The notes under the pieces: generated by a model
Told to the model about the DNA's origin: nothing
The model's database searches: none
Seen by the model: the letters and a program-made list of their open reading frames with translations, nothing else
NCBI GenBank assembly: GCA_963665665.1
Contig: OY762428.1
Span: 5,216,001-5,280,000, forward strand
Direction of reading: 5' to 3'
Length of the DNA stretch: 64,000 nucleotides
Source: Candidatus Kapaibacterium sp.
Lineage (GTDB): Bacteria; Bacteroidota; Ignavibacteria; Kapaibacteriales; UBA2268
Shown: positions 63,141 through 63,959 of the stretch, piece after piece
Layout: each line of letters opens with the position of its first letter
Position numbering within the stretch: the first letter of the stretch is position 1
Position numbers and translations under genes: made by a program

Positions 63141-63437
63141 AATTAGTAAAAAATTAATTCAACAAAATATAAATTTCTTATCCGGAATAACGAAAAGAGG
63201 CAAATAAGATTTTGGGTTGGCTAAAAATTATCCTTATTCTATTGTTGTAATTTTATAATCAAAAAAATTTAAATTATTATTCTGTAATAAAATATCATAT
63301 TTATTAATGGAATATTAAAATAACATTAATAATTAAAAATATATATTCCATAAGCAATTGTCATATAGTTAGATACTAAAATATTTCGTATATTGAAATA
63401 ATATTTTATTATATACAATAACCTATGGGAGGTTAAT

Positions 63438-63650
63438 TTGGAAAACGAGAAGAAAATGAAGTACGAAGTTCCGGAAGTTATTGGCTTTGAATGGATGAAC
63501 TCGATAGGAACTTGTTTTTCGAATGGTTCTGCTGATACTGGAAGATGTAGCGGAAATGGATTAACAGCGAATTATACTTGTGCCGGCAATGGTAATACGG
63601 CATTAACCCAATGTCAGGCTCAGGGAAGCGGTTTTACCGGAGGAACTTGA
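63438..63650 (+). CDS. putative Cys-rich RiPP precursor peptide 1 (70 aa)
   Basis: GGGAGG SD 5 nt before TTG; leader MENEKKMKYEVPEVIGFEWMNSIGT; Cys at 26, 37, 48, 59. Confidence 0.8.
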   Translation: MENEKKMKYEVPEVIGFEWMNSIGTCFSNGSADTGRCSGNGLTANYTCAGNGNTALTQCQAQGSGFTGGT

Positions 63651-63716
63651 TTCTTAATATTTGTGATACTATTTTATTTGCTTCGACAAAAAATAGATCA
63701 ATTTTGCGAGAATAAA

Positions 63717-63959
63717 ATGGAAAATGAGAAGAAAATGAAATATGAAGTTCCTGAAGTGATTGGTTTTGAATGGATGCAGTCAATTGGTACTTGTTCGTCC
63801 GGATCTGCTGATGGTTACAATTGCAGTGCTGACGGTAATTCAGCCGGTTCATCTTGCAGCGGTCATGGTATGGTTCCTGACGGAGGATGCAATCTGGCCG
63901 GATTAGGTGATACTGCTGCAGGTTGTTCAATAGGATTTGACGCAGCAACATTTAATTAA
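63717..63959 (+). CDS. putative Cys-rich RiPP precursor peptide 2 (80 aa)
   Basis: same leader except one residue (N21Q); Cys at 26, 36, 47, 58, 70; start reassigned from 63663 by homology to peptide 1. Confidence 0.8.
   Translation: MENEKKMKYEVPEVIGFEWMQSIGTCSSGSADGYNCSADGNSAGSSCSGHGMVPDGGCNLAGLGDTAAGCSIGFDAATFN

What the first reader, a model, noticed from the sequence alone, without database searches (positions are those of the whole stretch)
63438..63959. Tandem RiPP-like precursor genes: conserved YxxP leader with hypervariable Cys-periodic cores (best candidate for an undescribed system)
Seen: two peptides of 70 and 80 aa share MENEKKMKYEVPEVIGFEWM(N/Q)SIGTC and then diverge into Gly/Ser/Ala/Asn-rich cores with 4 and 5 Cys. 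A strong SD and a long AT-rich promoter region precede the first gene. Known: a constant leader with a variable core is the hallmark of RiPP precursors, and YxxP(x)L/V leaders are bound by PqqD-like RRE domains in lasso and radical-SAM pathways. Regularly spaced Cys with nearby Asn/Asp is typical of ranthi/sactipeptide substrates. The SynChlorMet-type rSAM/PqqD cassettes are the closest context I can suggest, unverified. Inference: the 5' end of a multi-precursor radical SAM/SPASM RiPP cluster in a poorly studied lineage. The enzymes are not visible because the window ends 41 bp after gene 2.
Basis: partly seen in the sequence, partly recalled or inferred. Interest (0 to 1): 0.9.

Follow-up and report, generated by a model that had tools for sequence, protein, structure and literature searches.

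The report
Orphan SynChlorMet-type peptide precursor pair
Two small neighbouring genes encode cysteine-repeat peptides that look like raw material for a radical-SAM peptide-modifying gene cluster lying far away in the same genome, a catalogued cluster type whose chemical product nobody has yet determined.

Summary
Two tandem ORFs (63438-63650, 70 aa; 63717-63959, 80 aa) share a 26-residue leader and have divergent cores with 4 and 5 Cys. The leader codons differ at 10 synonymous sites and 1 non-synonymous site.

These genes are not the 5' end of a cluster. Downstream lie a secreted M64 peptidase, DUF5777, YceI and other genes, with no rSAM or RRE.

The same genome carries two SynChlorMet (Scm) cassettes. 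The cassette at 1.44 Mb (ScmD/E/F/C, S26 peptidase, extra rSAM, HprK-like kinase, sulfotransferase) holds four precursors. Only these four share the window's Y-x-x-P-E-V...F-x-W-M leader.

The genome has 22 family members, 15 of them outside the cassettes. NCBIfam already has a precursor model (ScmA, TIGR04252), but it misses the window peptides. Profile comparisons link them to it: hhalign gives 97.8%, and a profile built from other phyla hits both peptides.

I found no paper on this cassette, and its chemistry is unknown. An earlier pass of this scan had already reported the second cassette.

Verdict: real, divergent, remotely encoded ScmA-like precursors, a new variant of a known but uncharacterised kind.

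The parts
63141..63437 (.). AT-rich intergenic region upstream of gene 1, the presumed promoter region
   Evidence: It is 297 nt at 17.8% GC against 38.8% for the window. The sigma-70 consensus scan was no better than shuffles (13 found against 12.2 expected). There was no Rfam match at E<=1. An 18-nt element at 63393-63410 recurs at 63661-63678 before gene 2 (83% identity).
63428..63432 (+). Shine-Dalgarno-like GGAGG, 5 nt before the TTG start of gene 1
   Evidence: Read from the sequence and located.
63438..63515 (+). Gene 1 (W1) leader, codons 1-26, containing Y9-E-V-P12-E-V and F17-x-W19-M20, up to the first Cys
   Evidence: The TTG start gives 8 residues before the Tyr, as in the four cassette-1 paralogues.
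63516..63650 (+). Gene 1 core (Gly/Ser/Ala/Asn-rich, Cys at residues 26, 37, 48, 59) and stop codon
63651..63716 (.). 66-nt spacer between the two genes (22.7% GC)
   Evidence: No terminator-like site was found.
63717..63794 (+). Gene 2 (W2) leader, codons 1-26, ATG start
63795..63959 (+). Gene 2 core (Cys at residues 26, 36, 47, 58, 70) and stop codon

Best explanation
The two genes encode divergent ScmA-like precursor peptides of the SynChlorMet (Scm) radical-SAM RiPP system, placed far from their enzymes. The proposed path is inferred unless marked shown. Each gene is translated into a 70 or 80 aa precursor. The N-terminal leader carries the [Y/W]xxPx[L/V/I] motif, which is bound by a PqqD-type RiPP recognition element. 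Here the cognate element is ScmD of the cassette at genome position 1.44 Mb. The four precursors in that cassette are the only other genes in the genome with the extended leader Y-x-x-P-E-V/I-x-x-F-x-W-M (this sharing is shown). ScmD presents the peptide to the two rSAM/SPASM enzymes ScmE and ScmF. They act once per C-x-x-G...A module (10-11 residue period), most likely making one Cys-derived cross-link per module. That gives 4 cross-links in W1 and 5 in W2. The cassette's extra enzymes may tailor the product further: a third rSAM, an HprK-like kinase, ScmC and a sulfotransferase. An S26/SipW-type peptidase then removes the leader. The pair is part of a 22-member precursor family dispersed over the genome and served by only two Scm cassettes.
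For: Coding and under selection: the leader shows 10 synonymous and 1 non-synonymous difference over 26 codons, while the core has diverged. No enzymes are adjacent. Cassette 1 (genome 1439720-1448413) scores as follows against NCBIfam and Pfam. ScmE reaches 491.9 bits (cut-off 400). ScmF reaches 461.4 bits (cut-off 400). ScmD reaches 87.4 bits (cut-off 100). ScmC reaches 117.7 bits (cut-off 125). It also has an S26 signal-peptidase-like gene, an rSAM without SPASM, an HprK-like protein and Sulfotransfer_1. Four precursors lie inside it. In the 6-sequence alignment of these four with W1 and W2, M1, Y9, P12, E13, F17, W19, M20, G24 and C26 are invariant. A profile of this leader subfamily finds exactly these 6 genes in the genome, and none in the other 300 genomes of the class that were searched. 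The whole genome has only 5 SPASM domains (4 of them in the two cassettes) and 4 PqqD domains. Link to ScmA: my own-genome HMM finds 56 small ORFs in 41 of 80 ScmE loci from other phyla. Of these, 33 lie on the same strand 0.9-2.5 kb after ScmE, which is just behind ScmF. Nine of 26 such peptides hit TIGR04252 ScmA at E<=1, one above its cut-off. The hhalign comparison of the window subfamily with ScmA-type peptides gives 97.8% probability, E 7.9e-13, over 53 columns with the leader in register. A profile built only from peptides of other phyla hits W2 (E 3.6e-6) and W1 (E 5.3e-4). The same core module occurs in both sets: Gly at Cys+3 in 84% of cases, Ala the commonest residue at +6, modal spacing 10-11. 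Complex prediction of ScmD (cassette 1) with W2 residues 1-40 gave weak support: score 0.45 against a best control of 0.01. The runs agree in at least 90% of contacts and the partner pLDDT is at least 54. That mark was reached by 58 of 80 solved complexes and 2 of 110 mismatched pairs, but scores at or under 0.60 came from only 7 of those 80 and from both mismatches that passed. RRE-leader complexes have been solved, so the pass may reflect likeness only. The [Y/W]xxPx[L/V/I/F/A] motif as an RRE ligand and SipW-type leader peptidases are described in PMC13381572 (section 6 and passages read).
Against: The curated ScmA model does not see the window peptides (0 families at E<=10). Only 2 of 18 subfamily members match it weakly (best E 0.0041). 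ScmD and ScmC of cassette 1 fall below their curated cut-offs. The pair lies about 1.6 Mb from cassette 1 by the shorter way round, if the single contig is circular (3.8 Mb in linear coordinates), and I have no expression data at all. No terminator was found between gene 2 and the M64 peptidase gene 69 nt downstream, so the pair may be co-transcribed with unrelated genes. The profile comparisons involve short, compositionally biased repeats, which can inflate scores. No product, cross-link or binding has been measured for any Scm cassette: searches for SynChlorMet and for the TIGR accessions found 0 papers. I could not inspect the genomic context of subfamily homologues from metagenomes. The complex score is weak.
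Confidence: 0.62

Rival explanations
1. The pair are genuine Scm-type precursors, but they are processed by the second cassette (3.06 Mb) or promiscuously by both cassettes, rather than specifically by cassette 1.
For: Cassette 2 has the higher-scoring ScmE (546.6 bits) and ScmC (225.5 bits), and it carries its own ABC exporter. All family members share Y-x-x-P/L and the C-x-x-G module. One enzyme serving many dispersed precursors is known for prochlorosins (PMC10783134, abstract in the search listing).
Against: Over the 18 residues from the Tyr, W2 shares 8-9 with three cassette-1 precursors. The fourth was mis-registered by that script and gives 11 by my own count on the alignment. The other members share at most 5 (four rows of that table were mis-registered and were not counted). 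The subfamily profile separates the 6 genes cleanly from the other 16. ScmD1 and ScmD2 are only 44% identical. RREs can discriminate between similar YxxP and WxxP leaders (PMC13381572, passages read).
Confidence: 0.12
2. The pair are duplicated precursor copies that have escaped the pathway. They would be unmodified small Cys-rich peptides (disulfide- or metal-binding, or decoys that titrate an RRE), possibly expressed with the downstream M64 peptidase operon.
For: There are no maturases nearby. Only 69 nt and no predicted terminator separate gene 2 from the M64 gene. Fifteen of 22 family members are scattered among housekeeping genes.
Against: The leader, useless without an RRE and peptidase, is the part under purifying selection (10 synonymous against 1 non-synonymous). 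There is no signal peptide for export. M64 is absent from all 80 ScmE loci (0 tblastn hits), so the neighbourhood is not conserved.
Confidence: 0.12
3. The pair are decaying or silent gene copies (pseudogenes in the making) with no product.
For: The family does produce relics. The copy at genome position 3043353-3043508 has 1 TGA and 1 TAA inside. No RNA data exist.
Against: Both frames are intact. Gene 1 keeps a GGAGG 5 nt before its start. The pattern of substitutions shows selection on the protein.
Confidence: 0.08
4. The pair are precursors of another RRE-dependent pathway in this genome, namely the lasso-peptide cluster at about 2.30-2.31 Mb.
For: That cluster has a PqqD B1 protein (87.1 bits, cut-off 80) and a B2 protein (81.7 bits, cut-off 33). 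It also has a cyclase-like protein (232 bits, below its cut-off of 525), an HprK-like kinase and a sulfotransferase. Lasso RREs also bind Y/WxxP leaders (PMC13381572).
Against: The cores are 45-55 residues long with periodic Cys and are homologous to ScmA-type cores. The leader extension is shared only with cassette-1 precursors.
Confidence: 0.03

Closest known systems
ScmA precursors of the SynChlorMet (Scm) cassette (NCBIfam TIGR04252 with ScmC TIGR04249, ScmD TIGR04248, ScmE TIGR04250, ScmF TIGR04251)
   Same: Both have a leader with an aromatic-x-x-P-x-(L/V/I) motif and a core of C-x-x-G...A modules every 10-11 residues. They are homologous by profile comparison. Paralogues with the same leader lie inside a cassette whose ScmE and ScmF pass the curated cut-offs.
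   Different: The curated ScmA model does not recognise them. The leader is extended by F-x-W-M. Asn is frequent at Cys+3 (35% in the subfamily against 2-8% elsewhere). The genes are not adjacent to any Scm gene. The cognate cassette carries extra genes: a third rSAM, an HprK-like kinase and a sulfotransferase.
Prochlorosins (many Nif11-leader precursors, one promiscuous ProcM)
   Same: Many precursor genes have a conserved leader and hypervariable cores and are dispersed over the genome away from few modifying enzymes. Here there are 22 genes for two cassettes. PMC10783134 was seen only as the abstract in a search listing. The count of about 30 precursors in one strain is recalled.
   Different: The enzyme class (rSAM/SPASM plus a discrete RRE, against a LanM synthetase), the leader family and the phylum all differ. 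Processing in trans is inferred here and not shown.
LPP (linear polyphosphorylated peptide) and paeninodin-like lasso clusters of Bacillota (PMC13381572)
   Same: Both use a discrete PqqD-type RRE that reads a YxxP leader, a SipW-type S26 peptidase as leader peptidase, an HprK-like kinase and an MsbA-like exporter. Several RRE systems coexist in one genome, which raises the problem of leader discrimination.
   Different: Those clusters have no radical SAM enzymes (the paper has 0 occurrences of 'radical SAM' or 'SPASM'). Their cores are not Cys-periodic, and their precursors lie in the cluster.
Ranthipeptides and sactipeptides (PapB, CteB, SkfB, AlbA type rSAM/SPASM maturases)
   Same: Both have Cys-rich cores, SPASM-domain rSAM enzymes and repeated short motifs that could each receive one thioether.
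   Different: ScmE scores far below those families' cut-offs: PapB 91.7 against 340, AlbA 88.8 against 850, SkfB 95.7 against 300. The nearest solved structures are remote: SkfB at E 7e-21 over the rSAM core only, CteB at E 1.7e-8. The bond type is unknown.

Membership tests
ScmA (NCBIfam TIGR04252, SynChlorMet precursor) | Scores above the curated cut-off (35 bits) of the family HMM | tested here: not met
   Both window peptides gave 0 NCBIfam families at E<=10. Two of 18 subfamily members hit weakly, best E 0.0041. For comparison, 9 of 26 ScmE/F-adjacent peptides hit at E<=1, and only 1 exceeded the cut-off.
ScmA (NCBIfam TIGR04252, SynChlorMet precursor) | Homology to peptides encoded beside ScmE/ScmF | tested here: met
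   hhalign gives 97.8% probability, E 7.9e-13, over 53 columns. A profile of 10 peptides from other phyla hits W2 at E 3.6e-6 and W1 at E 5.3e-4.
ScmA (NCBIfam TIGR04252, SynChlorMet precursor) | Gene lies inside a cassette with ScmD, ScmE and ScmF | tested here: not met
   No rSAM, SPASM or PqqD lies within 20 kb downstream or 6 kb upstream. The feature is met by the four closest paralogues at 1.444-1.447 Mb.
RRE-dependent RiPP precursor | Leader motif [Y/W]xxPx[L/V/I/F/A] | tested here: met
   Y9-E-V-P12-E-V14 is present in both peptides. In the 18-sequence subfamily alignment P12 is invariant and Y9 nearly so. The motif definition comes from PMC13381572, section 6.
RRE-dependent RiPP precursor | Physical binding of the leader by the RRE | tested here: inconclusive
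   The prediction gave weak support only: 0.45 against a best control of 0.01. At 0.60 or under, only 7 of 80 solved complexes and both passing mismatches fall there. No binding was measured.
SynChlorMet cassette (present in this genome) | ScmE and ScmF above their curated cut-offs, with ScmD and ScmC beside them | tested here: met
   In cassette 1, ScmE scores 491.9 and ScmF 461.4 (cut-offs 400), while ScmD (87.4 against 100) and ScmC (117.7 against 125) fall just below. In cassette 2, ScmE scores 546.6 and ScmC 225.5.
Ranthipeptide / sactipeptide | Cys S to C-alpha/beta/gamma thioether bonds made by the rSAM enzyme | not testable with these tools
   This needs mass spectrometry and NMR of the product. 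Enzyme homology to PapB, AlbA and SkfB is far below those family cut-offs.
Lasso peptide precursor | Short core beside a lasso cyclase and B1/B2 proteins | tested here: not met
   The cores have 45-55 residues with periodic Cys. The only lasso-type genes lie at about 2.30-2.31 Mb.

The most novel reading that the evidence does not exclude
This genome may run a radical-SAM counterpart of the prochlorosin strategy with leader-coded routing. Twenty-one intact, dispersed precursor genes would be sorted between two orthogonal Scm cassettes, and kept away from a co-resident lasso RRE, by two leader dialects: Y-x-x-P-E-V..F-x-W-M and K-Y-x-K-P/L-x-L. The window pair would be trans-encoded substrates of a hybrid cassette that adds lasso-type phosphorylation and sulfation, plus a third rSAM step, to the unknown Scm cross-links.
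Probability: 0.3. Interest if true: 0.7.

Novelty: new variant of a known kind. Interest (0 to 1): 0.5.

Why it matters
The SynChlorMet cassette is widespread in anaerobes: 246 ScmE relatives turned up in one scan of species-representative genomes. Yet I found no paper on it, so its product and chemistry are unknown.

This genome offers an unusually rich test bed. It has two divergent cassettes, 21 intact natural substrates with two leader types, and several substrates encoded far from any enzyme. The same profile finds 12 copies here against 0-1 in each of five other complete genomes that have ScmE.

The window pair shows that the curated ScmA model misses a whole leader subfamily. It also shows that genome mining restricted to cluster neighbourhoods would overlook such precursors. 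For RiPP enzymology the system makes two questions directly testable: how RREs discriminate between leaders, and how tolerant the rSAM enzymes are of different substrates.

Tried and rejected
1. Downstream cluster. I read 30 kb beyond the window and ran Pfam on 10 downstream and 6 upstream proteins. No maturase was found.

2. Close homologues by word search. Only the window's own two proteins came back (2 of 3 candidates).

3. Relatives. Fourteen of 41 genomes 'matched' at E<=10, but every match outside the own genome had E>=0.0998, which I treat as noise.

4. Context of subfamily homologues. The metagenome scan returned one 1070-nt contig, which was of no use. The tool for encoding contigs is closed, so the neighbourhoods of the metagenomic subfamily members remain unseen.

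5. Expression. No RNA holder was listed. Laying contigs of 4 runs showed only that identical DNA fragments exist in two other runs, with no variants.

6. Promoters and terminators. The sigma-70 scan was no better than shuffles and found 0 terminators. I saw no shared upstream motif by eye among the 22 genes. There was no Rfam match.

7. ABC exporter 7.4 kb downstream as the missing exporter of cassette 1. It is 31% identical to the cassette-2 ABC protein, but three other ABC genes in the genome score 29-31% as well, so there is no specific link.

8. M64 peptidase as a pathway member. There were 0 tblastn hits in 80 ScmE loci.

9. Literature. There were 0 papers for 'SynChlorMet' and for the five TIGR accessions. 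Nothing relevant came from ScmE/ScmF or from two broader term sets. Papers outside the held library and all supplementary files were not seen.

10. Script failures. One search timed out and was repeated without --max. One search failed on a regex and was corrected. In one search, four rows of the leader-identity table were mis-registered by the regex: one cassette-1 precursor, the relic, and the copies at 3.82 and 4.95 Mb. I did not count them.

Full report
**1. What is in the window**

One search lists two + strand ORFs. W1 runs 63438-63650 (70 aa, TTG start). W2 runs 63717-63959 (80 aa from its ATG). They share residues 1-26 except position 21 (N/Q). After that they diverge into Gly/Ser/Ala/Asn-rich cores with 4 and 5 Cys spaced 10-12 residues apart.

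A GGAGG lies 5 nt before the TTG. The 297-nt upstream spacer is 17.8% GC, against 38.8% for the window. A 91-nt direct repeat (82% identity, period 279) covers each start region and leader.

Eleven of the 26 leader codons differ between the copies. Ten differences are synonymous (counting TTG/ATG) and one is non-synonymous. The cores differ by many replacements and indels. The duplication is therefore old, and selection keeps the leader peptide constant while the core drifts.

The TTG/ATG starts are supported by the paralogues. All of them have 8 residues before the conserved Tyr.

**2.

I laid the whole genome (the window is 5216001-5280000 of a single 5.46-Mb contig) and read on past the window end. 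The next genes were run against Pfam:
- a signal-peptide-bearing M64 peptidase, 69 nt downstream
- DUF5777
- YceI
- a tRNA_anti-like protein
- a CarboxypepD_reg protein
- a beta-helix protein with a T9SS tail
- on the other strand, an ABC transporter and a RecD-like helicase

Upstream lie an AhpC/TSA-like gene, a LolA-like gene and an oxaloacetate-decarboxylase-type operon. None of these is an rSAM, SPASM or PqqD gene.

**3. The enzymes are elsewhere in the same genome**

A six-frame search with W2 found five further paralogues in the own genome, at E 9.2e-9 to 2.8e-4. It found only noise (E>=0.0998) in 40 relatives.

Four of the paralogues lie at 1444255-1446833. They are embedded in a gene set that NCBIfam and Pfam identify as follows:

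| Gene | Score | Curated cut-off |
|---|---|---|
| ScmD (PqqD-like) | 87.4 bits | 100 |
| ScmE (rSAM/SPASM) | 491.9 bits | 400 |
| ScmF (rSAM/SPASM) | 461.4 bits | 400 |
| ScmC | 117.7 bits | 125 |

The same gene set also contains:
- an HPr-kinase-like protein
- a Sulfotransfer_1 protein
- a third rSAM without a SPASM domain, on the opposite strand
- an archaeal-type S26 signal-peptidase-like protein

A family search over 401 genomes of the phylum found ScmE above its cut-off in 8 of them. Seven belong to one other family. Three of their contigs have the same lengths as records titled Chlorobiaceae. The own genome has two copies.

The second cassette (3056038-3062980) has three precursors, ScmD, ScmE, ScmF, an ABC exporter, ScmC (225.5 bits) and an S26 peptidase. 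Earlier notes of this scan had already described this second cassette, its precursors and a nearby relic. I re-derived those points independently.

The genome holds only 5 SPASM domains, 4 of them in the two cassettes, and 4 PqqD domains.

**4. A dispersed family with two leader dialects**

An HMM iterated on 66,534 small ORFs of the genome converges on 22 members: 21 intact and 1 relic. Seven lie in the two cassettes. Fifteen are scattered among housekeeping genes, including six around 1.483-1.491 Mb.

The window pair and the four cassette-1 precursors form one subfamily. M1, Y9, P12, E13, F17, W19, M20, G24 and C26 are invariant across the six.

A profile of this subfamily, enlarged with metagenomic members, finds exactly these six genes in the genome. 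It finds nothing in the other 300 genomes of the class that were searched.

Over the 18 residues from the Tyr, W2 shares 8-9 with three cassette-1 precursors. The fourth gives 11 by my own count on the alignment. Other members share at most 5. Four rows of the table were mis-registered and were not counted.

The other 16 members use a K-Y-x-K-(P/L)-x-L leader, like the cassette-2 precursors. The two ScmD proteins are 44% identical and the two ScmE proteins 53% identical, so the cassettes are not recent copies of each other.

**5. Link to the catalogued precursor family**

ScmE has 246 confirmed relatives in a scan of species-representative genomes. Eighty loci were fetched, from Desulfobacterota, Victivallales, Aminicenantes, Chlorobiaceae, Nitrospirae, Omnitrophota, Methanocella and others.

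My own-genome HMM finds 56 small ORFs in 41 of these 80 loci. Among the 61 loci with at least 3 kb downstream of ScmE, 36 have a hit. Fifty-one of the 56 hits are on the ScmE strand, and 33 lie 0.9-2.5 kb after ScmE, which is directly behind ScmF.

Of 26 such peptides tested, 9 match NCBIfam TIGR04252 'SCM_precur_ScmA' at E<=1, one of them above the 35-bit cut-off. The precursor family is therefore already catalogued.

The window peptides do not match that model at E<=10. Only 2 of 18 subfamily members match it weakly. Three other results link them to it all the same:
- hhalign of the subfamily against ScmA-type peptides gives 97.8% probability, E 7.9e-13, with the Y-x-x-P-E-L/V in register.
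- A profile built solely from 10 peptides of other phyla hits W2 (E 3.6e-6) and W1 (E 5.3e-4) in this genome.
- The core module is the same in both sets: Gly at Cys+3 in 84% of cases, Ala the commonest residue at +6 (36% and 45%), modal Cys spacing 10-11. In the window subfamily a C-x-x-N-G variant is common.

An exhaustive profile search of 1.84 billion representatives found 121 proteins at E<=1e-3 and 19 at E<=1e-10. Several carry the F-x-W-M leader. None has a name other than 'hypothetical protein'.

**6. Mechanism**

These points are shown:
- The genes code for protein and the leader is under selection.
- They are homologous to precursors that sit beside ScmD/E/F.
- Their leader type is shared exclusively with cassette 1.

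The rest is inferred. ScmD of cassette 1 would bind the Y-x-x-P-E-V leader. ScmE and ScmF would modify each C-x-x-G module. Tailoring and S26-type leader removal would follow.

The [Y/W]xxPx[L/V/I/F/A] motif as the ligand of discrete RREs, SipW-type leader peptidases and HprK-like kinases in RiPP clusters are documented for LPP and lasso systems in PMC13381572 (outline, section 6 and passages read).

A complex prediction of ScmD with W2 residues 1-40 gave weak support: 0.45 against a best control of 0.01. That mark was reached by 58 of 80 solved complexes and 2 of 110 mismatches. Scores at or under 0.60 came from only 7 of those 80 and from both passing mismatches. The partner pLDDT was at least 54 and the runs agreed in at least 90% of contacts. 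Solved RRE-leader complexes exist, so the score may be memory of those.

The bond chemistry cannot be inferred. ScmE is far below the cut-offs of PapB, AlbA, SkfB, PqqE and MftC, and the nearest solved structures are remote.

**7. What is new and what is not**

The system is known bioinformatically through the NCBIfam models. I found no publication on it in the held library. Supplements and papers outside the library were not seen.

Four things are new here:
- A leader subfamily that the curated model misses.
- Precursors encoded far from any enzyme.
- A family expansion: 12 hits with the foreign profile, against 0-1 in each of five other complete ScmE genomes.
- A cassette variant that has recruited a kinase/sulfotransferase pair paralogous to that of the genome's lasso cluster (28% and 44% identity).

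The closest functional analogy for dispersed precursors served by few enzymes is the prochlorosin system (PMC10783134, abstract in the listing).

**8. Verdict**

The pair is a new variant of a known but chemically uncharacterised kind. Interest is moderate (0.5).

Noticed in passing
genome G000:C1:1439720-1448413 (L017:3720-12413), outside the window: This is a SynChlorMet cassette variant. Besides ScmD/E/F/C and an S26 peptidase it carries a third rSAM without a SPASM domain (minus strand, between the precursors), an HprK-like protein and a Sulfotransfer_1 protein. No ABC exporter lies inside it. An ECF sigma factor and a T9SS-tail protein lie just beyond it.
   Followed up: partly
genome G000:C1:about 2303500-2310300 (L129:4547-11305): A lasso-peptide-type cluster lies here. 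It has a cyclase-like protein (232 bits, below its cut-off of 525), B2 (81.7 bits), PqqD B1 (87.1 bits), a Fic-like protein, a sulfotransferase, an HprK-like kinase and a 339-aa protein with no NCBIfam match. Its sulfotransferase and kinase are 44% and 28% identical to those of Scm cassette 1. I did not look for its precursor gene.
   Followed up: partly
genome G000:C1:1483128-1491326 (L036): Six further family members are strung between pyruvate:ferredoxin-oxidoreductase-sized, ferritin/rubrerythrin-like and NADH-dehydrogenase-like genes, with no Scm enzyme nearby. The gene names here are by eye from the ORF listing and were not tested.
   Followed up: no
genome-wide family, e.g. C1:1487983, 1491060, 1862381, 2398887, 1483128: Six of the 16 members with the K-Y-x-K leader have Leu instead of Pro in the Y-x-x-P motif, including the relic at 3043419. 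Pro is important for RRE binding in other systems (PMC13381572). Whether these copies are still bound is open.
   Followed up: no
genome G000:C1:4952715-4953071 (minus strand, L018): A longer family member with at least 7 Cys lies directly downstream of a 2128-aa protein with long Q/A/N-rich coiled-coil-like repeats. It has no obvious ATG near the leader.
   Followed up: no
genome C1:5295279-5296119, 5306718-5307503 and 4960585-4960847 (beyond the window end): Stretches of short tandem repeats open in several frames (heptad-like LTEHLVD and NKRGIKS units) recur at several places in the genome, next to sequences that look like a repeated element.
   Followed up: no
window 63634-63951, minus strand: A 105-aa antisense ORF overlaps gene 2. 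There is no evidence that it is a gene.
   Followed up: no
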